Assembly (NCBI RefSeq): GCF_024223415.1
Contig: NZ_CP100500.1
DNA: 64,000 bases
Origin: Escherichia coli
GTDB taxonomy: Bacteria > Pseudomonadota > Gammaproteobacteria > Enterobacterales > Enterobacteriaceae
Strand: one strand, 5' to 3'
Shown here: piece by piece, positions 8,129 to 36,600 of the stretch
Position numbering within the stretch: the stretch's first letter is position 1
Layout: each line of letters opens with the position of its first letter
Made by a program: the position numbers and the translations under genes
Notes under the pieces: model-generated
What the model saw: the letters and a program-made list of their open reading frames with translations, nothing else
The model's database searches: none
Told to the model about the DNA's origin: nothing

Positions 8129-9160
8129 ATGTCTGCATTTACCCCGGCAAGTGAAGTCTTGCTGCGTCACAGTGATGATTTCGAACAAAGCCGTATTCTG
8201 TTTGCCGGAGACTTACAGGATGACCTGCCCGCGCGTTTAGATACCGCGGCCAGCCGTGCTCATACCCAGCAATTCCACCACTGGCAGGTATTAAGCCGCC
8301 AGATGGGGGATAACGCCCGTTTCAGTCTGGTCGCCACGGCGGATGACGTCGCAGATTGCGATACGCTGATTTACTACTGGCCGAAGAACAAACCGGAAGC
8401 CCAGTTCCAGTTGATGAATTTACTTTCTCTGCTGCCAGTGGGGACAGATATTTTTGTCGTTGGCGAGAACCGCAGCGGCGTGCGCAGCGCCGAGCAGATG
8501 CTGGCAGATTATGCGCCGTTGAATAAAGTCGACAGCGCTCGTCGCTGTGGCCTCTATTTTGGTCGTCTGGAAAAACAGCCGGTATTTGATGCGGAGAAAT
8601 TCTGGGGCGAATACAGCGTCGATGGCCTGACGGTCAAAACGCTGCCTGGCGTGTTTAGCCGCGACGGTCTGGATGTCGGTAGCCAGTTGCTGCTCTCGAC
8701 GTTAACTCCGCACACGAAAGGTAAAGTGCTGGATGTCGGCTGTGGCGCGGGCGTGCTTTCAGTTGCCTTTGCGCGCCATTCGCCGAAAATTCGTCTCACC
8801 TTGTGCGATGTCTCTGCCCCGGCGGTAGAAGCCAGCCGCGCAACACTTGCGGCCAACGGTGTTGAAGGTGAAGTCTTTGCCAGCAACGTCTTTTCCGAGG
8901 TGAAAGGTCGTTTTGATATGATCATCTCCAACCCGCCGTTCCACGATGGGATGCAAACCAGCCTGGATGCGGCGCAAACGCTGATTCGCGGTGCGGTGCG
9001 TCATCTTAATAGCGGCGGCGAGCTGCGAATTGTAGCGAACGCCTTCCTGCCTTATCCGGACGTGCTGGATGAGACATTTGGCTTCCACGAAGTGATCGCG
9101 CAAACAGGGCGCTTCAAGGTGTATCGCGCCATTATGACCCGCCAGGCGAAGAAAGGTTAA
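8129..9160 (+). CDS. rsmC: 16S rRNA m2G1207 methyltransferase
   Basis: 343-aa ORF with SAM-binding [11 protein letters not shown] and NPPFH motifs. Confidence 0.9.
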
Positions 9161-9170
9161 TTATCTCGCC

Positions 9171-9340
<170 letters not shown>

Positions 9341-9391
9341 TCTCCTGATGAACATTTTTCCAGCAATTACATCTCCGGCGATAATTAACTA

Positions 9392-9419
9392 TTGACGAAA
9401 AGCTGAAAACCACTAGAAT
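9392..9419 (+). promoter_or_regulatory. Sigma70 promoter of the leuQPV tRNA operon
   Basis: TTGACG, 16-bp spacer, TAGAAT, followed by GC-rich discriminator gcgcctcc about 40 bp before the first tRNA. Confidence 0.6.
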
Positions 9420-9460
9420 GCGCCTCCGTGGTAGCAATTCTTTTTAAGAATTGATGGTAT

Positions 9461-9547
9461 GCGAAGGTGGCGGAATTGGTAGACGCGCTAGCTTCAGGTG
9501 TTAGTGTCCTTACGGACGTGGGGGTTCAAGTCCCCCCCCTCGCACCA
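9461..9547 (+). tRNA. leuQ: tRNA-Leu(CAG), copy 1
   Basis: 87 nt GCGAAGGTGGCGGAATTGGTAGACGCG...; anticodon loop CTTCAGGTG; T-arm GGGGGTTCAAGTCCCCC; encoded CCA. Confidence 0.95.
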
Positions 9548-9575
9548 AAAACCACGTTGATATTGCTCGCACTGG

Positions 9576-9662
9576 GCGAAGGTGGCGGAATTGGTAGACG
9601 CGCTAGCTTCAGGTGTTAGTGTTCTTACGGACGTGGGGGTTCAAGTCCCCCCCCTCGCACCA
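9576..9662 (+). tRNA. leuP: tRNA-Leu(CAG), copy 2
   Basis: Same 87-nt sequence with one substitution (gttcttacgg instead of gtccttacgg in the variable arm). Confidence 0.95.
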
Positions 9663-9696
9663 AACGAGGCGATATCAAAAAAAGTAAGATGACTGT

Positions 9697-9782
9697 GCGA
9701 AGGTGGCGGAATTGGTAGACGCGCTAGCTTCAGGTGTTAGTGTCCTTACGGACGTGGGGGTTCAAGTCCCCCCCTCGCACCA
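9697..9782 (+). tRNA. leuV: tRNA-Leu(CAG), copy 3
   Basis: Same sequence, but the C-run before the 3' acceptor strand has 7 C instead of 8 (86 nt). Confidence 0.9.
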
Positions 9783-9820
9783 ATTATCTTTACTTCCTTT
9801 CTTGTTGCTTCCCTGTTTTA

Positions 9821-10057
9821 TCATCCCTGCCTCAAATTCATTATCATCAGCATGATGCCAGCAATAAGCGCCAGGCACGATGGTAGCAAAATGTAATGCC
9901 GTAACTGTTTGTGATACAGCATCACCGGCGTCAATATCAATCCCATCAGAATGACAATCCGCCACTGATCCGGCGATAAATCCGCATACATCAGCCCTGC
10001 AATCAGCAATCCCGGCAGCAACACTCCCCAGCCACTGCCCAGCGTACGTTGCAACAT
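9821..10057 (-). CDS. yjjZ: Small inner-membrane protein YjjZ (78 aa)
   Basis: Hydrophobic ORF MLQRTLGSGWGVLLPGLLIAG...; start at the internal Met of the 115-aa track ORF; Fur boxes immediately upstream. Confidence 0.7.
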   Translation of the reverse strand: MLQRTLGSGWGVLLPGLLIAGLMYADLSPDQWRIVILMGLILTPVMLYHKQLRHYILLPSCLALIAGIMLMIMNLRQG

Positions 10058-10075
10058 GGTTTCATCTCTTTCATT

Positions 10076-10115
10076 GATAATGATAACCAATATCATATGA
10101 TAATTTTTATCATTT
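10076..10115. promoter_or_regulatory. Fur boxes in the yjjZ/fhuF divergent region
   Basis: gataatgataaccaatatcatatgataatttttatcattt contains overlapping GATAAT/ATCATT hexamers of the Fur consensus. Confidence 0.6.
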
Positions 10116-10164
10116 GCAAGCCAGAGAAATCCCTTGCTATCGGGTAAACCTATCGCTAGGATTA

Positions 10165-10180
10165 GCAATCATTATCATTT
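10165..10180. promoter_or_regulatory. Fur box proximal to fhuF
   Basis: gcaatcattatcattt matches the ATAATCATTATC core of the Fur consensus, about 20 bp before the fhuF ATG. Confidence 0.55.
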
Positions 10181-10197
10181 AGATTACTATCCCGATT

Positions 10198-10986
10198 ATG
10201 GCCTATCGTTCCGCACCGCTCTATGAAGATATCATCTGGCGAACGCATCTCCAGCCACAGGATGCTAGGCTTGCACAAGCCGTACGTGCGACGATCGCCG
10301 AACATCGTGAACATTTGCTGGAGTTTATCCGCCTGGATGAACCCGCTCCGCTTAACGCCATGACGCTGGCGCAATGGTCATCACCGAATGCGCTAAGTTC
10401 TCTACTCGCGGTCTATTCCGATCATATCTATCGCAACCAACCAACGATGATCCGCGAGAACAAACCGCTGATCTCACTATGGGCACAATGGTATATCGGC
10501 CTGATGGTGCCACCATTAATGCTGGCGCTACTGACGCAGGAAAAAGCATTAGATGTGTCGCCGGAACATTTCCATGCTGAGTTTCACGAAACCGGACGCG
10601 TCGCCTGTTTCTGGGTCGATGTGTGTGAAGATAAAAACGCAACACCACATTCGCCGCAGCAGCGAATGGAAACGTTAATCAGCCAGGCGCTGGTTCCGGT
10701 TGTGCAGACACTAGAAGCGACCGGAGAGATCAACGGCAAACTTATCTGGAGTAATACCGGTTATTTGATCAACTGGTATCTTACTGAGATGAAGCAACTG
10801 CTCGGCGAGGCGACGGTTGAATCGCTGCGCCATGCCCTCTTTTTTGAGAAAACGCTTACTACCGGTGAAGATAATCCACTCTGGCGTACCGTGGTGCTAC
10901 GCGACGGCCTGCTGGTGCGCCGCACTTGCTGCCAGCGTTATCGCTTACCGGATGTGCAGCAATGTGGCGATTGTACGCTGAAATGA
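10198..10986 (+). CDS. fhuF: Ferric-siderophore reductase FhuF (2Fe-2S)
   Basis: 262-aa ORF with C-terminal C-C-x10-C-x2-C cluster (CCQRYRLPDVQQCGDC). Confidence 0.9.
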   Translation: MAYRSAPLYEDIIWRTHLQPQDARLAQAVRATIAEHREHLLEFIRLDEPAPLNAMTLAQWSSPNALSSLLAVYSDHIYRNQPTMIRENKPLISLWAQWYIGLMVPPLMLALLTQEKALDVSPEHFHAEFHETGRVACFWVDVCEDKNATPHSPQQRMETLISQALVPVVQTLEATGEINGKLIWSNTGYLINWYLTEMKQLLGEATVESLRHALFFEKTLTTGEDNPLWRTVVLRDGLLVRRTCCQRYRLPDVQQCGDCTLK

Positions 10987-11023
10987 AAGCACTGCCGGGG
11001 AAGTAAACCCGGCATCATGCGGA

Positions 11024-11701
11024 TTAATAGGGATGCAACACATTACTTGCTTCGCAATGCCGCATACATAACAGAATATCTGCGGCCTCCAACAACCCTG
11101 CATCAGAACTGACGCCCAGTTTCGACATCACATTAAATTTATGTGCACGGATCGTTTTGATATTGCGTTTAAGCTGCTCGGCAATTTGTGTCATTGAGTA
11201 GCCACGCGACATAAAGCGCAATATTTCTCTCTCCGTCGGGCTTAACGTCCGGCTTTGGTTAATGTACCACTGATTGTTCAGTCGGTCGGTCGCCTGACGT
11301 ACACCATTTAATGACAAAAAGAGTTCCTGATGAAAAATCTCCAGCGTTGACGCTTTACTTAATACACCGTCCAGCGGTGATGGCGACAATGAACCAATCA
11401 GCCGAGCTTCAATATCATCATCCGCAATAACTAAACGCCGGGTACGCGGAAACTTAATCGCCAGTTCAGTCAGGCAAGATAATCCCTCTCTGCGCTCACT
11501 TCTCATGGCAGAAAAAGAAAAAATGACCGCCGCAAACGAGATCCGCGACATGGCATCCTGAAATGACTCCTGACTGGTATAGGTATGGAGCTTATAAGGG
11601 TTACCCGCAAACTTTCTGAATAAACTCTCAATACCGATACTACTCATGACGCATTTTTCTATGAGTGCGACATTTCTCTTCTTAATTCGGCTGTGTTCCA
11701 T
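11024..11701 (-). CDS. bglJ: LuxR-family transcriptional regulator BglJ
   Basis: 225-aa ORF with C-terminal LuxR-type HTH; overlaps the yjjQ 3' end. Confidence 0.85.
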
Positions 11702-30681: not shown

Positions 30682-32301
30682 ATGGCCAAAGCACCAACTA
30701 AAAAAGCCAAAGCAAAGAAAGGCTTTGAAGAAACATTATGGGATACTGCAAACCAACTTCGCGGTAGCGTTGAGTCCTCCGAATACAAGCACGTGGTGTT
30801 AAGCCTCGTGTTCCTGAAATTCATCAGCGATAAGTTTGAAGCACGCCGCAAAAAAATGATTGCCGATGGGCAAGCTGACTTCCTTGAGATGGAAGTGTTC
30901 TACCAGCAGGACAACATTTTCTACCTGCCGGAAGAGGCGCGCTGGTCATTTATCAAACAAAATGCCAAACAGGACGATATTGCGGTTCGTATTGACACCG
31001 CCCTCTCGACCATTGAGAAACGTAACCCAACCCTGAAAGGCGCGCTGCCAGACAACTACTTCAGCCGTCAGAATCTGGAAACCAAAAAACTGGCGTCACT
31101 GATTGATACCATCGACAACGTCGAAACGCTGGCACACGAAACTGACGTTGAAACGTTGTCGAAAGAAGACCTGGTCGGACGCGTTTACGAATACTTCCTC
31201 GGTAAGTTTGCCGCAACCGAAGGCAAAGGCGGTGGTGAGTTCTACACGCCCAAATGTGTGGTTACGCTGTTAACTGAAATGCTCGAACCTTTCCAGGGCA
31301 AAATCTATGACCCATGCTGCGGCTCGGCGGGGATGTTCGTGCAGTCGGTGAAGTTTGTCGAGAGCCATCAGGGTAAAAGTCGTGATATCGCGCTGTATGG
31401 TCAGGAACTGACAGCCACGACGTATAAACTGGCAAAAATGAACCTCGCCATTCGCGGCCTTTCAGCAAACCTCGGCGAACGCCCGGCAGACACTTTCTTT
31501 AGCGACCAGCACCCGGACCTGAAAGCCGACTACATTCTGGCGAACCCGCCGTTCAACCTGAAAGACTGGCGTAATGAAGCCGAATTAACCAAAGATCCAC
31601 GTTTTGCTGGTTATCGTATGCCGCCAACCGGTAACGCCAACTACGGCTGGATTTTGCATATGCTCTCCAAGCTGTCGGCTAACGGCACAGCAGGTTTTGT
31701 GCTGGCAAACGGTTCGATGAGTTCTAACACCAGCGGTGAAGGCGAGATCCGTGCGCAGATGATCGAAAATGATCTGATCGACTGCATGATCGCCCTACCT
31801 GGTCAGTTGTTTTACACCACGCAGATCCCGGTGTGTTTATGGTTTATGACCAAATCGAAGGCTGCCGACCCGGCCAAAGGTTATCGTGATCGTCAGGGCG
31901 AGACGCTGTTTATTGATGCGCGTAACCTCGGCACCATGATTAGCCGCACAACTAAAGAGTTAACGGCGGAAGATATTGCCACCATCGCCGATACCTACCA
32001 TGCATGGCGCAGTACGCCGGAAGAACTGGCTGCACGGATTGCGCGTGGTGACAGCAAGCTGGAAAAATATGAAGACCAGGCAGGCTTCAGCAAAGTTGCG
32101 ACCCTGCAAGATATTAAAGATAACGACTACGTGCTGACGCCGGGCCGCTATGTGGGTGCAGCCGAGCAGGAAGAGGACGGCGTGGCATTTGAGACAAAAA
32201 TGCGGGAGTTGTCGAAGACGTTGTTTGAGCAGATGAAGCAGGCGGAAGAACTGGATTGTGCGATTCGCCAGAATCTGGAGGCGCTGGGTTATGGGGAGTA
32301 A
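30682..32301 (+). CDS. hsdM: Type I R-M N6-adenine DNA methyltransferase subunit
   Basis: 539-aa ORF with SAM-binding motif I (DPCCGSAGMF) and catalytic NPPF (ILANPPFNL); N-terminus unlike EcoKI HsdM. Confidence 0.9.
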   Translation: MAKAPTKKAKAKKGFEETLWDTANQLRGSVESSEYKHVVLSLVFLKFISDKFEARRKKMIADGQADFLEMEVFYQQDNIFYLPEEARWSFIKQNAKQDDIAVRIDTALSTIEKRNPTLKGALPDNYFSRQNLETKKLASLIDTIDNVETLAHETDVETLSKEDLVGRVYEYFLGKFAATEGKGGGEFYTPKCVVTLLTEMLEPFQGKIYDPCCGSAGMFVQSVKFVESHQGKSRDIALYGQELTATTYKLAKMNLAIRGLSANLGERPADTFFSDQHPDLKADYILANPPFNLKDWRNEAELTKDPRFAGYRMPPTGNANYGWILHMLSKLSANGTAGFVLANGSMSSNTSGEGEIRAQMIENDLIDCMIALPGQLFYTTQIPVCLWFMTKSKAADPAKGYRDRQGETLFIDARNLGTMISRTTKELTAEDIATIADTYHAWRSTPEELAARIARGDSKLEKYEDQAGFSKVATLQDIKDNDYVLTPGRYVGAAEQEEDGVAFETKMRELSKTLFEQMKQAEELDCAIRQNLEALGYGE

Positions 32302-33604
32302 TGCTATTACAACAATAATTGGTGAACACTTGCTGATTAGAAATGGCAAATCTTCGCCATCAAGAGCCATAACAGGAGAATATCCTGTTTATGGTTCAAA
32401 TGGAATAATAGGTTATTCAGATGAATATAACGCTAATGAAAATACAATAATTATCGGGCGTGTTGGGTCATATTGTGGTTCAGTTTATATTTCCGATAAA
32501 AAATGTTGGGTCACTGATAATGCAATAATTGGAACCGCAAAGAATGAAAATGAAAGTCATTTTTGGTTCTATCTTTTAAAAAAAATAGATTTGAACAATT
32601 ATAGTACTGGTTCAGGCCAACCTCTCATTAACCAAACAATAATTAATACAATATCCGTTACCATTCCTAAGCTCAGTGAGAAAAGAGTAGCCATTGGACA
32701 TTTTTTACGCCACTTTGATCAAAAGATAAATTTATCTCTTAATATCAATCAATCCTTGGAACAAATGTCCCAAACCTTGTTCAAATCCTGGTTTGTGGAT
32801 TTCGATCCGGTGATTGATAACGCGCTGGACGCGGGAAACCCAATCCCGGAAGCGATGCAATCTCGCGCAGAACTGCGTCAAAAAGTACGTAATAGTGCAG
32901 ATTTTAAACCGCTTCTAGCGGAAATCCGCTCGCTTTTCCCAAGTGAATTTGAAGAAACCGAACCAGGATGGTTACCTAAGGGCTGGAAACATGGTAATTT
33001 AAATGATGTCACGAAGATCTTAAGTGGGTTTGCTTTTAAGAGTAAAGACTTTGGTGATGAAGGTAAAAGTGTCATAAAAATAAAGAACATTAATATCGAT
33101 AAAACAATTGATATAGATCATACTCAAAAAATTTCTGATATCGTAGCCAAAGACGTAAAGCGTTTTCAATTATTTGATGCCGATATTTTGATGGCTATGA
33201 CTGGTGCCACGGTCGGTAAATTTGGAATATTAGCATCAAAAAATCATGAAGAATATTATCTTAACCAACGAGTTGCGAAGTTTGAAACAGATAAAAAAGC
33301 TTACCTTTATTGTATATTGAATCAAGAAAGTACCGAAAGATTTATAATCAATACAGCTCAGGGCAGTGCACAACCAAATATCAGTGCTAAAGATATTTTA
33401 AGTATTCCACTCACACTACCATCAAACGAAATAATAACTATATTCAATACATTTGTTGATCCTTTATTCTACAGAATGATAGCGAATACAAAAGTTAGTT
33501 TAAGTCTAACAGAACTCCGCGACACCTTGCTCCCAAAACTCATCTCCGGCGAGCTCTCCCTGGAAGATCTTCCGGATCTCAGCACCAATACAGAAGCCGC
33601 ATAA
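32291..33604 (+). CDS. hsdS: Type I R-M specificity subunit
   Basis: Two AT-rich variable target-recognition regions separated by a conserved central region (SLEQMSQTLFKSWFVDFDP) plus conserved C-terminal helix (LTELRDTLLPKLISGEL); ATG at 32291 overlaps the hsdM 3' end. Confidence 0.85.
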   Translation: MGSNAITTIIGEHLLIRNGKSSPSRAITGEYPVYGSNGIIGYSDEYNANENTIIIGRVGSYCGSVYISDKKCWVTDNAIIGTAKNENESHFWFYLLKKIDLNNYSTGSGQPLINQTIINTISVTIPKLSEKRVAIGHFLRHFDQKINLSLNINQSLEQMSQTLFKSWFVDFDPVIDNALDAGNPIPEAMQSRAELRQKVRNSADFKPLLAEIRSLFPSEFEETEPGWLPKGWKHGNLNDVTKILSGFAFKSKDFGDEGKSVIKIKNINIDKTIDIDHTQKISDIVAKDVKRFQLFDADILMAMTGATVGKFGILASKNHEEYYLNQRVAKFETDKKAYLYCILNQESTERFIINTAQGSAQPNISAKDILSIPLTLPSNEIITIFNTFVDPLFYRMIANTKVSLSLTELRDTLLPKLISGELSLEDLPDLSTNTEAA

Positions 33605-33612
33605 CGCATTTT

Positions 33613-33637
33613 GCCCCTGTAAAATCAGGGGCTTTCT
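33613..33637 (+). terminator. Hairpin with T-run between hsdS and hsdR (possible attenuator)
   Basis: gcccctg-taaaat-caggggc followed by tttct, 9 bp after the hsdS stop and about 60 bp before the hsdR ATG. Confidence 0.45.
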
Positions 33638-33698
33638 GGTAAGGTTTTCTACTGATACGGGAATGCTTACCAGAAATTAGCCAGGGTTGGAGCGCGAT

Positions 33699-36600
33699 AT
33701 GAGTCTCTCTTTCAGTGAAGCAAAATTAGAACAAGCGATCATTGAACTGCTGCAGGATCAGGGATATCAACACCTGATCGGCGATAATGTCCCACGTTCA
33801 AGTCTCGATCAGGTCATCATCGAAGACGATCTCCGTCATTATTTAGCGGCACGCTACCAGCCTGATGGCATTACTGAAGAAGAGATTCAACGGCTGATCA
33901 AACAGTTCACCACGCTTCCGGCCTCCGACCTTTATGAAAGCAACAAAACATTTTGTCGCTGGCTGGCAAATGGTTTTCTGTTCAAACGCGACGATCGGCA
34001 ACAAAAAGATCTCTATATTGAATTGCTCGACACCCGGCATCTACCCGCCGCACTGCGCCAGATATTTGACACCGACGATGTCCCGTTGCAACAGGCGGCG
34101 GAACTCCCGCCTTCCTATATTAATCCGCCGCTTAACCGGATTAAGATTGTTAACCAGCTTAAAATCTCCGGTAAAGATAATCAGACTCGTATTCCTGACG
34201 GCATTCTCTATATCAACGGTCTGCCACTGGTCGTCTTTGAATTTAAAAGTGCGGTGCGCGAGCAAGAAGCCAGTATTGGCGATGCCTGGAAGCAGCTCTG
34301 TAAACGCTATCGCCGGGATATTCCGCAACTGTTTATCTACAACGCGCTCTGCGTTATCAGCGATGGCGTAAATAACCGGATGGGCAACCTGTTTGCGCCC
34401 TATGAATACTTTTACTCATGGCGCAAAGTCACCGGTAATGAAAACCGTGAACAGGACGGAATTCCATCATTGCACTCAATGATTCAGGGGCTGTTTCATC
34501 CGGTACGTCTGCTGGACGTGATTAAAAACTTTATCTGCTTCCCGGATAAAGCCAAGCACGAAGTAAAAATTTGCTGCCGATATCCGCAGTACTATGCCGC
34601 CCGCAAACTCTATTACAGCATCAAGCAAGCGCGTAAACCTTTCGGTAGCGGTAAAGGCGGCACCTACTTTGGCGCAACGGGCTGTGGCAAAAGTTACACC
34701 ATGCAATTTTTAACGCGTCTTTTGATGAAGAGCGTGGAGTTTGCCAGCCCGACCATTGTTTTGATCACCGACCGCACCGATCTGGACGATCAGCTTTCTG
34801 CGCAAATGTGCAACGCCAAAAATTACATTGGCGACGACACCATCGTTCCTGTTACCAGCCGTGAAGATTTGCGTAATCAACTGGCGGGACGCAATAGTGG
34901 CGGTGTATTCCTGACAACGATCCATAAATTCACCGAAGACACCGAACTCCTTTCTGAACGCAGCAATATCATTTGCATCTCGGACGAAGCACATCGCAGC
35001 CAGGTTAACCTCGACCAGAAAGTCATCGTCGATAAAGAAAGCGGAAAAGTGCGCAAAACTTATGGCTTTGCGAAATACCTGCACGATTCACTGCCAAACG
35101 CCACCTATGTTGGCTTTACCGGCACACCGATTGACGCGACGCTCGATGTCTTCGGTGAGGTGATCGACAGTTACACCATGACCGAATCCGTTCAGGATGA
35201 AATCACTGTACGCATCGTGTACGAAGGCCGTGCGGCTAAAGTGATCCTGGACTCCAGTAAACTGGAAGAAGTTGAAAAGTATTACGAAGAGTGCGCAAAC
35301 GCAGGCACCAATGAGTGGCAAATCGACGAAAGCAAAAAAGCCACCGCAACCATGAATGCGGTACTGGGTGATGAAGATCGGTTAAAAGCCCTCGCGGAAG
35401 ATTTTGCCAAACATTATGAAAAACGCGTAGACGAAGGTTCCACCGTAAAAGGCAAAGCCATGTTTGTTTGTGCCAGCCGTGAAATTGCCTGGGATTTCTA
35501 CCGTCAGCTTAAAGCTATTCGCCCTGCCTGGTTTGAAGTGAAGCAAGCACCCGATGGCGTCGTCCTGACGGAACAGGAGCAGAAAGAGTTACCGCCTTCA
35601 GAAATGGTGAAGATGGTCATGACGCGCGGTAAAGATGACGACGAGGCGCTTTATGATTTACTGGGCACAAAAGAATATCGTAAAGAGCTGGATAAACAGT
35701 TTAAAAACGCTAAATCGAATTTCAAAATTGCCATTGTTGTTGATATGTGGCTGACCGGTTTCGACGTCCCGGAACTGGATACCATCTATATTGATAAACC
35801 CTTACAAAAACATAATCTTATCCAGACCATTTCTCGCGTTAACCGTAAACTGGAAGGCAAAAGTAAAGGGTTAGTGGTGGACTACATCGGCATTAAAAGT
35901 CAGATGAACCAGGCACTGGCAATGTATTCCCGCATTGATGCCACCAACTTTGAAGATATTCAGCAATCGGTAATAGAAGTTAAAAACCATCTCGATTTGT
36001 TGGGGCAAGTCTTTTACGAATTTGACAGTCGGGATTATTTTAGTGGTGAGCCACAAGCGCAATTATCCTGCCTCAACCGCGCGGCGGAATTTGTTCTGCG
36101 TACCCAGAAAGTTGAACGTCGTTTTATGGGACTGGTTAAACGCATGAAAGCCGCCTACGACGTCTGCTGCGGCAGCGAAGCATTATCACAGACAGAACGT
36201 GACTATATTCACTATTATCTTGCTGTTCGTTCAATTGTTTTCAAACTGACGAAAGGTGACGCACCGGATGTCACCCAGATGAATGCACGCGTTCGTGAAA
36301 TGATTGCAGAAGCGTTAAAAGCTGATGGCGTAGAAGAGATTTATTTTCTTGGCGATAAAAAAGCGGAATCCATCGATATTTTTGACGAAGATTATCTGGC
36401 ACGAATTAACAAGATCAAACTTCCGGCAACGAAGATCCAGTTATTACAAAAATTACTGGAAAAAGCGATCAGCGACTTCAAGAAAGTGAACCAGTTGCAA
36501 GGGATTAACTTCACCCGCCGCTTCCAGGCAATTATAGATCGTTATAATGAGCGGCGAGAAGATGATGTACTCAACGGTGAAGAATTCGATACATTCAGTC

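What the first reader, a model, noticed from the sequence alone, without database searches (positions are those of the whole stretch)
10058..10197. Fur boxes in the divergent yjjZ/fhuF control region
Two AT-rich clusters matching the GATAATGATAATCATTATC consensus lie between the divergent start codons of yjjZ and fhuF, consistent with iron-responsive repression of both genes.
Basis: partly seen in the sequence, partly recalled or inferred. Interest (0 to 1): 0.25.

Follow-up and report, generated by a model that had tools for sequence, protein, structure and literature searches.

The report
Known Fur operators between yjjZ and fhuF
The two AT-rich clusters are real binding sites for the iron-sensing repressor Fur in an E. 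coli control region that was footprinted in 2007; the result is ordinary, with the small added point that each cluster belongs to one of the two genes.

Summary
The window is E. coli. Positions 10058-10197 are exactly the 140-bp gap between yjjZ (minus strand) and fhuF (plus strand).

I built a Fur weight matrix from 18 other K-12 sites, leaving fhuF out. It scores 21.6, 21.4 and 15.7 bits in cluster 1 (10073-10114) and 13.8 and 6.7 bits in cluster 2 (10161-10185). These are four of the six best sites in the 64 kb, and shuffles of the gap almost never reproduce them.

All five sites are identical in K-12. There, Chen et al. 2007 found two Fur-protected regions by DNase I footprinting. They map to 10069-10121 (high affinity) and 10151-10204 (low affinity).

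Cluster 1 covers the yjjZ promoter (start site 10084). Cluster 2 covers the fhuF start site (10167/10168).

In 80 enterobacterial species the fhuF-proximal site is always present, and the strong site always sits about 31 bp from the yjjZ ATG. In 65 species a diguanylate cyclase gene of about 1.1 kb separates the two.

So these are two independent operators, brought together in Escherichia by loss of that gene. Interest is low.

The parts
9821..10057 (-). yjjZ coding sequence (78 aa, DUF1435 small membrane protein)
   Evidence: ORF. Pfam PF07256, E 1.3e-36. Annotated as yjjZ in E. coli genomes.
10069..10121 (.). High-affinity Fur footprint 'fhuF1' of Chen et al. 2007, mapped onto the window
   Evidence: NC_000913.2 4603763-4603815. 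Mapping is window = 4613884 - coordinate, fixed by the two start codons given in that paper. The sequence is identical to K-12 over this range.
10073..10114 (.). Cluster 1: three overlapping or adjacent 19-bp Fur sites (10073-10091, 15.7 bits; 10079-10097, 21.6 bits; 10096-10114, 21.4 bits). This is the yjjZ operator.
   Evidence: Matrix scan. 17/19 match to the consensus. A homologous strong site lies 28-37 bp from the yjjZ ATG in 75 of 75 loci.
10092..10119 (-). yjjZ sigma-70 promoter: -35 TTGCAA (10119-10114), 16-nt spacer, -10 TATGAT (10097-10092)
   Evidence: Promoter scan. Same hexamers reported in PMC10301672. The block is nearly invariant in 76 sequences.
10084..10084 (-). yjjZ transcription start site (27-nt leader)
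   Evidence: MG1655 position 4,605,777 in PMC10301672. Mapped with window = 4615861 - coordinate (NC_000913.3; fhuF start).
10122..10126 (.). Junction between the yjjZ-side module and the fhuF-side module, where other genera carry a GGDEF diguanylate cyclase gene and its flanks
   Evidence: Cross-genus homology from the yjjZ side ends near 10122. Homology from the fhuF side starts near 10127. The gene is shown.
10134..10162 (+). fhuF sigma-70 promoter: -35 TTGCTA (10134-10139), 17-nt spacer, -10 TAGGAT (10157-10162; TATGAT in K-12)
   Evidence: Placed from the published start sites. The pattern TTGCnn-17-TAnnnT is found in 70 of 80 species, and 64 of those 70 have TAGGAT. Alignment.
10167..10168 (+). 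fhuF transcription start sites (31-nt leader)
   Evidence: NC_000913.2 4603717 and 4603716, from the Figure 5 legend of PMC2189734.
10161..10185 (.). Cluster 2: two 19-bp Fur sites offset by 6 bp (10161-10179, 13.8 bits; 10167-10185, 6.7 bits). This is the fhuF operator, spanning -6 to +19.
   Evidence: Matrix scan. A homologous site of 11.1-24.2 bits lies 26-37 bp from the fhuF ATG in 80 of 80 species. The sequence AATCATTATCATTTAGATT is identical in 69 of 80.
10151..10204 (.). Low-affinity Fur footprint 'fhuF2' of Chen et al. 2007, mapped onto the window
   Evidence: NC_000913.2 4603680-4603733. One difference from K-12 in this range, at 10159, which lies outside the Fur 19-mers.
10198..10986 (+). 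fhuF coding sequence (262 aa, ferric-siderophore reductase)
   Evidence: ORF. Pfam PF06276 and PF11575. Annotation.
10139..10175 (.). Tentative OxyR-like site: 13 of 20 specified positions of ATAGnTnnnAnCTAT-N7-ATAGnTnnnAnCTAT
   Evidence: This is weak: 15 positions in the window score 13 or more. OxyR repression of fhuF is reported (PMC8115020), but the primary paper with the footprint was not readable.

Best explanation
The 140-bp gap holds two back-to-back sigma-70 promoters whose start sites are 83 bp apart. Each promoter has its own Fur operator.

**yjjZ operator (cluster 1).** When iron is sufficient, Fe2+-Fur dimers fill cluster 1. Its three sites and the published high-affinity footprint span -37 to +16 of the yjjZ promoter. 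That covers the -35 and -10 hexamers and the start site, so RNA polymerase is excluded and yjjZ is tightly off.

**fhuF operator (cluster 2).** Fur binds cluster 2 more weakly. Its two sites are offset by 6 bp, and the published low-affinity footprint spans -16 to +38 of fhuF. That covers the end of the -10 hexamer, the start site and the leader, which blocks initiation of fhuF. The weak operator fits the use of fhuF::lacZ as the readout of the Fur titration assay.

**Origin.** The two operators are separate ancestral modules. In most Enterobacteriaceae they lie about 1.4 kb apart, with a diguanylate cyclase gene between them. In Escherichia that gene is missing and the modules abut at about 10122-10127.

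**Shown:** the sites, their scores, their positions relative to the promoters, and their conservation. **From the literature:** Fur binding and Fur-dependent expression. **Inferred:** that each cluster acts mainly on its own gene in E. coli.
For: - **Matrix scores and shuffle controls:**
- **Sequence identity to K-12 at all five Fur sites:**
- **Two Fur DNase I footprints in K-12, and the fhuF start sites:** PMC2189734.
- **yjjZ start site.** It is silent in wild type, active in a fur deletion strain, and strong in vitro: PMC10301672.
[quoted passage not shown] It is iron-repressed in Salmonella.
- **fhuF-side conservation.** 80 of 80 species have a Fur site of 11-24 bits centred 26-37 bp upstream of the fhuF ATG. 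Control 60-bp segments inside the fhuF coding sequence reach 11 bits in 0 of 720 cases.
- **yjjZ-side conservation.** 75 of 75 loci with a detectable yjjZ start have a strong site centred 28-37 bp upstream of it. This holds whether fhuF is 140 bp or 1395-1444 bp away.
- **Limits of homology.** Cross-genus homology stops just outside each promoter-operator module.
- **Conservation within E. coli.** The 53-bp high-affinity footprint region around cluster 1 (10069-10121) is 100% identical in 3738 genomes. The 45 bp over cluster 2 and the fhuF start (10160-10204) are 100% identical in at least 4122.
Against: - No experiment read here separates the contribution of each cluster to each gene in E. 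coli. Chen et al. treat both as 'fhuF promoter' clusters.
- The high-affinity footprint ends at -46 relative to the fhuF start. Fur bound there could still affect fhuF, for example by blocking contacts of the polymerase alpha subunit or by cooperating with cluster 2.
- The block around cluster 2 is more invariant than the Fur matrix requires. OxyR and UvrY are also reported at this promoter, so part of the constraint may not come from Fur.
- The -10 hexamer sits only 5-6 nt from the mapped fhuF start sites, which is slightly close.
Confidence: 0.88

Rival explanations
1. The two clusters act as one shared operator. Fur bound at the strong cluster 1 helps load or stabilise Fur at the weak cluster 2, by polymerising along the DNA or by looping over the 65 bp between site centres. 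On this view cluster 1 is needed for full repression of fhuF as well as yjjZ in E. coli.
For: - The clusters are only 65 bp apart, centre to centre.
- Both are footprinted on one fragment, and Fur is described as spreading at higher concentrations ('secondary footprinting').
- Chen et al. assign both clusters to the fhuF promoter.
- The high-affinity footprint reaches -46 of fhuF.
Against: - In 65 of 80 species the clusters are about 1.4 kb apart, and the fhuF-proximal site is conserved there on its own. Cluster 2 therefore suffices in those species.
- The 30 bp between the two footprints (10122-10150) holds no site above 0 bits.
- The spacing between modules differs among Escherichia (140 bp), Leclercia and Silvania (153-166 bp). 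That argues against a constrained helical phase between the clusters.
Confidence: 0.15
2. The conserved block at cluster 2 exists mainly for another purpose: an OxyR or UvrY site, or a function of the 31-nt fhuF leader RNA. On this view Fur binding there is secondary.
For: - AATCATTATCATTTAGATT is identical in 69 of 80 species, which is tighter than the matrix demands.
- There is a 13/20 match to the OxyR consensus at 10139-10175.
- OxyR repression of fhuF is reported.
- A top-group UvrY ChIP-exo peak and a gel shift are reported at fhuF.
- The leader has no Shine-Dalgarno-like 4-mer.
Against: - Fur protects exactly this region in vitro.
- The matrix score is 11-24 bits in all 80 species.
- fhuF is Fur-repressed in vivo.
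- The OxyR match is weak: 15 positions in the window are as good.
- These functions could coexist with Fur binding rather than replace it.
Confidence: 0.05
3. The matches are chance resemblances in AT-rich promoter DNA and have no Fur function.
For: - The region is 67% A+T.
- Fur-box hexamers resemble -10 and -35 elements.
- Cluster 2 matches only 12 of 19 positions of the consensus.
- Matrix hits of 12-16 bits also occur inside AT-rich restriction-modification genes of the window.
Against: - Shuffle controls.
- Published footprints on identical sequence.
- Conservation across 80 species.
- Fur-dependent expression of both genes.
Confidence: 0.01

Closest known systems
The fhuF/yjjZ Fur binding-site clusters of E. 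coli K-12 (fhuF1 and fhuF2; Chen et al. 2007, NAR 35:6762)
   Same: This is the same locus. All five Fur 19-mers are identical. The window differs from K-12 at only three of the 140 intergenic positions, none of them in a Fur site. My fhuF-free matrix gives 15.7, 21.6 and 21.4 bits for cluster 1 and 13.8 and 6.7 bits for cluster 2. The published values are 16.1, 20.8 and 22.3, and 14.6 and 9.3.
   Different: The window strain has -10 TAGGAT where K-12 has TATGAT (10159 G versus T). The window form is the majority E. coli allele and the enterobacterial consensus.
The fepB-entC divergent Fur-regulated control region of E. coli (Brickman et al. 1990; listed as two footprints in Table 3 of PMC2189734)
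   Same: Two divergent iron-regulated genes. Each has its own separately footprinted Fur region within one intergenic space.
   Different: Different genes. Both fepB and entC belong to one pathway (enterobactin). Here, yjjZ and fhuF became neighbours only through loss of an intervening gene in Escherichia.
The fepA-fes and fepD-entS bidirectional promoters (Escolar 1998 and Christoffersen 2001, as cited in PMC2189734)
   Same: Divergent Fur-repressed promoters in a short intergenic region.
   Different: Each of these regions is listed with a single footprinted Fur region in Table 3 of PMC2189734. From my own knowledge, that one region serves both promoters. Here there are two regions, 30 bp apart, each over one promoter.

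Membership tests
Fur operator (Fur box) of the enterobacterial Fur regulon | A 19-bp 9-1-9 inverted-repeat match to the Fur matrix or consensus at the level of proven sites | tested here: met
   Scores of 21.6, 21.4, 15.7 and 13.8 bits, against a leave-one-out range of 7.4-27.3 bits for 18 proven sites. 17/19 match to the consensus for cluster 1. Cluster 2 passes by the matrix only; it matches 12/19 of the consensus.
Fur operator (Fur box) of the enterobacterial Fur regulon | Sites clustered at offsets of 3 or 6 bp, allowing several dimers (Chen et al. 2007) | tested here: met
   Site centres are at 10082 and 10088 (6 bp apart) and at 10170 and 10176 (6 bp apart). The centre at 10105 lies 17 bp from 10088, so that site is adjacent to the pair rather than offset by 3 or 6 bp.
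Fur operator (Fur box) of the enterobacterial Fur regulon | Overlap with core promoter elements or the start site, so that binding excludes RNA polymerase | tested here: met
   Cluster 1 spans -30 to +12 of yjjZ (start site). Cluster 2 spans -6 to +19 of fhuF (start site). The hexamers were located.
Fur operator (Fur box) of the enterobacterial Fur regulon | [quoted passage not shown] | not testable with these tools
   Reported for the identical K-12 sequence: DNase I footprints at 50 nM Fur with Mn2+, and a gel shift of the strong cluster (PMC2189734).
Fur operator (Fur box) of the enterobacterial Fur regulon | Expression of the adjacent gene depends on iron and on Fur | not testable with these tools
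   Reported in the literature: the core Fur pan-regulon, yjjZ on in a fur deletion strain, the CFT073 and MG1655 direct regulons, the Salmonella yjjZ reporter, and the fhuF::lacZ titration assay.
Fur operator (Fur box) of the enterobacterial Fur regulon | Conservation of the site at orthologous promoters | tested here: met
   Present in 80 of 80 species at fhuF and in 75 of 75 loci at yjjZ.
OxyR binding site | Four ATAG/CTAT elements at 10-bp spacing (ATAGnTnnnAnCTAT-N7-ATAGnTnnnAnCTAT) | tested here: inconclusive
   13 of 20 positions match at 10139-10175, which is not exceptional in the window. The primary paper with the footprint (Zheng et al. 2001) is not held.

The most novel reading that the evidence does not exclude
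Loss of the diguanylate cyclase gene in Escherichia placed the strong yjjZ operator 46-98 bp upstream of the fhuF start site. That operator contains a promoter-like element facing fhuF: TTGATA-16-TATGAT at 10074-10101, matching 10 of 12 positions. E. coli fhuF may therefore have gained an extra layer of Fur control that other enterics lack. The layer could be cooperative binding between the clusters, or a second upstream promoter embedded in Fur sites.
Probability: 0.12. Interest if true: 0.3.

Novelty: already known. Interest (0 to 1): 0.1.

Why it matters
It matters little as a discovery. This is a textbook Fur-regulated region, and fhuF::lacZ is the standard reporter of the Fur titration assay.

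The check is useful as a calibration: a reader working from raw sequence alone found a real, experimentally footprinted operator pair at exact coordinates.

The comparative result adds a modest clarification. The strong cluster, usually listed under fhuF, is ancestrally the yjjZ operator. The weak cluster is the universal fhuF operator. The two became neighbours through a gene loss. That may help explain why fhuF responds to small drops in free Fur while yjjZ stays tightly silent.

Tried and rejected
- **Supplement of Chen et al. 2007.** Not held. I rebuilt a matrix from K-12 coordinates in their Tables 3 and 4 instead. Two sites, cir and exbB, needed a +2 shift between genome versions.
- **Zheng et al. 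2001 (OxyR site and fhuF primer extension).** Not held. The OxyR site could only be scanned by consensus, and the result is weak.
- **Consensus-only matching for cluster 2.** It gives 12/19, which is not significant. The matrix and conservation were needed.
- **First search for yjjZ within 700 bp of fhuF.** It suggested that only 10 of 80 loci had yjjZ. A search of the whole loci showed yjjZ at the locus edge in 65 more. I dropped the idea that yjjZ had been inserted in Escherichia and replaced it with loss of the intervening gene.
- **tRNA-Leu as an insertion landmark.** It is present upstream only where the cyclase gene is absent, simply because the fetched loci are too short elsewhere. This was not informative.
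- **Rfam scan of 9000-11200.** No RNA family lies in the intergenic region.
- **Other matrix hits in the window.** Sites at 32543-32567, 33430-33448 and 47469-47487 are intragenic and lie in DNA of 61-67% A+T. I judged them probable chance matches.

Full report
**What is at the coordinates**

The window is E. coli. A 641-bp query around the finding matches 5424 of 5426 complete genomes, where the genes are annotated yjjZ, fhuF and tRNA-Leu. The yjjZ reading frame (78 aa, Pfam DUF1435) runs on the minus strand with its ATG at 10057. fhuF (262 aa, FhuF and FhuF_C domains) starts at 10198 on the plus strand. The finding's 10058-10197 is therefore exactly the 140-bp intergenic region. Three tandem tRNA-Leu(CAG) genes lie just beyond yjjZ.

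Shuffles of the window give 0.03 matches on average. A second cluster 1 site matches 15/19. Cluster 2 reaches only 12/19, which is unremarkable, since about 180 19-mers on both strands do as well.

- I took 18 proven K-12 sites from the coordinates in Tables 3 and 4 of Chen et al. 2007 (PMC2189734).
- I fetched them from NC_000913.3 and checked them by eye.
- I symmetrised the matrix. Its consensus is AATGATAATCATTATCATT, and leave-one-out scores of the training sites span 7.4-27.3 bits.

| Site | Score (bits) | Cluster |
|---|---|---|
| 10079-10097 | 21.6 | 1 |
| 10096-10114 | 21.4 | 1 |
| 10073-10091 | 15.7 | 1 |
| 10161-10179 | 13.8 | 2 |
| 10167-10185 | 6.7 | 2 |

Four of the six sites in the window that reach 12 bits lie in these 140 bp. 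Dinucleotide shuffles of the 140 bp reach 21 bits in 0.16% of trials and never give four sites of 12 bits or more (0 of 5000). Shuffles of the cluster 2 segment reach 13.84 bits in 0.18% of trials. The refutation criterion, matrix scores below threshold, is not met.

**Comparison with published footprints**

Chen et al. [quoted passage not shown] They gave 16.1, 20.8 and 22.3 bits for one cluster and 14.6 and 9.3 bits for the other. They then showed two DNase I footprints, one of high and one of low affinity.

Using the two start codons given in that paper, the mapping is window = 4613884 - coordinate. This gives:
- fhuF1 (high affinity) = 10069-10121
- fhuF2 (low affinity) = 10151-10204
- fhuF start sites = 10167 and 10168

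The primers of their footprinting fragment are recognisable at about 9995-10020 and 10231-10256. The window differs from K-12 at only three intergenic positions (10059, 10126, 10159), and none is in a Fur 19-mer. The footprints therefore transfer directly. The authors also noted that only the strong region was found by the consensus sequence, which agrees.

**Anatomy**

- **yjjZ.** Its start site is MG1655 4,605,777 (PMC10301672), which maps to 10084 on the minus strand. The promoter is TTGCAA (10119-10114), a 16-nt spacer, and TATGAT (10097-10092). Cluster 1 spans -30 to +12, and footprint fhuF1 spans -37 to +16. That paper reports no yjjZ transcription in wild type, transcription in a fur deletion strain, and a strong start site in vitro.
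- **fhuF.** The promoter is TTGCTA (10134-10139), a 17-nt spacer, and TAGGAT (10157-10162), with starts at 10167/10168 and a 31-nt leader. Cluster 2 spans -6 to +19, and footprint fhuF2 spans -16 to +38.
- The two start sites are 83 bp apart, back to back.
- No Rfam family lies in the gap.

**Comparative evidence**

A scan of one genome per species with FhuF as query returned 80 enterobacterial loci with 65-95% protein identity.

On the fhuF side:
- Every locus has a Fur site of 11.1-24.2 bits (median 16.4) centred 26-37 bp upstream of the fhuF ATG.
- Of 720 control 60-bp segments inside fhuF, none reaches 11 bits.
- The block TTGCnn-17-TAGGAT...AATCATTATCATTTAGATT is nearly invariant. Homology between genera ends just upstream of the -35 hexamer, near 10127.

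On the yjjZ side:
- The cluster 1 homologue seemed at first to be limited to the 10 loci with yjjZ close by.
- Searching the whole loci showed the yjjZ N-terminus in 75 loci. In 65 of them it lies 1395-1444 bp from the fhuF ATG.
- In all 75, a strong site (mostly 21.6 bits) is centred 28-37 bp, usually 31 bp, upstream of the yjjZ ATG.
- The block GATAATGATAACCAATATCATATGA...CATTTG is nearly invariant. Homology ends near 10122.

Between the two modules, those 65 genomes carry a gene of about 350 aa for a membrane protein with a GGDEF domain. It runs in the same direction as fhuF. Escherichia has a 140-bp gap instead, and Leclercia and Silvania have 153-166 bp. Their junction sequences differ from that of Escherichia, which suggests separate deletions.

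Within E. coli, the 53-bp high-affinity footprint region around cluster 1 (10069-10121) is 100% identical in 3738 genomes. The 45 bp over cluster 2 and the fhuF start (10160-10204) are 100% identical in at least 4122.

**Mechanism**

- **Shown here:** two clusters of high-scoring Fur sites, each overlapping one promoter and each conserved with its own gene.
- **From the literature:** Fur protects both regions. Both genes are Fur- and iron-regulated.
- **Inferred:** cluster 1 is the yjjZ operator and gives tight occlusion of the whole promoter. Cluster 2 is the fhuF operator and is weaker, acting at the start site. The weakness fits the use of fhuF::lacZ as the readout of the Fur titration assay.
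- **Open:** whether cluster 1 also contributes to fhuF repression in E. coli. I give that about 15%.

OxyR repression of fhuF is reported, and a UvrY ChIP-exo peak is reported at this promoter. I found only a weak OxyR-like match, 13/20, at 10139-10175.

**Verdict**

The feature is already known. The only additions are two: the strong cluster, usually listed under fhuF, is ancestrally the yjjZ operator, and the compact divergent region arose through loss of a diguanylate cyclase gene. Interest is low.

Noticed in passing
window 10122-10127; compare L038 316-1380 and L095 348-1394: In 65 of 80 enterobacterial species, a gene of about 350 aa for a membrane GGDEF diguanylate cyclase lies between yjjZ and fhuF. 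Escherichia lacks it. Leclercia and Silvania also lack it, with different junction sequences, which suggests independent deletions.
   Followed up: partly
window 10159: The fhuF -10 hexamer is TAGGAT here and TATGAT in K-12 MG1655. TAGGAT is the consensus across genera: 64 of the 70 species in which the promoter pattern was found. In E. coli, 3536 of 5426 genomes are identical to the window over 10127-10190. The laboratory strain therefore carries the minority allele, which is closer to the sigma-70 consensus.
   Followed up: partly
window 10074-10101, plus strand: The best promoter-like match in the region (TTGATA-16-TATGAT, 10 of 12 positions) lies inside cluster 1 and faces fhuF. Its -10 hexamer overlaps the yjjZ -10 hexamer in the palindrome ATCATATGAT. 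I found no start-site evidence for it. It may only reflect the resemblance between Fur boxes and promoter hexamers.
   Followed up: partly
window 10167-10197: The 31-nt fhuF leader contains no Shine-Dalgarno-like 4-mer, yet its first 19 nt are identical in 69 of 80 species. How translation starts on this leader is not obvious.
   Followed up: partly
window 32543-32567 and 33430-33448; also 47469-47487: Fur matrix hits of 11-16 bits lie inside type I restriction-modification genes (S, M and R subunits). A 12-bit hit lies inside a pentapeptide-repeat protein gene. All are intragenic, in DNA of 61-67% A+T, and are probably chance matches.
   Followed up: partly
window 31800-34300: This type I restriction-modification segment is covered at 80% or more in only 8 of 5426 E. 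coli genomes. Another 868 genomes match only part of it. It is a variable island, unlike the near-universal fhuF region.
   Followed up: no
window 9144-9321: REP-type repeats between rsmC and the tRNA-Leu genes match Rfam naRNA4. The match at 9239-9321 on the minus strand scores 65.3 bits, above the gathering score of 59.5.
   Followed up: no
window 9461-9781: There are three tandem tRNA-Leu(CAG) genes. The third (9696-9781) is one base shorter and scores lower against the Rfam tRNA model (40.8 versus 48.5 bits).
   Followed up: no
window 10058-10204 (matches in public records): Three plasmid records in the E. coli genome collection also carry this chromosomal region. I did not examine them.
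   Followed up: no
window 10139-10175: A 13/20 match to the OxyR consensus spans the fhuF promoter spacer, the -10 hexamer and the start site. This is compatible with reported OxyR repression of fhuF, but it is statistically weak.
   Followed up: partly
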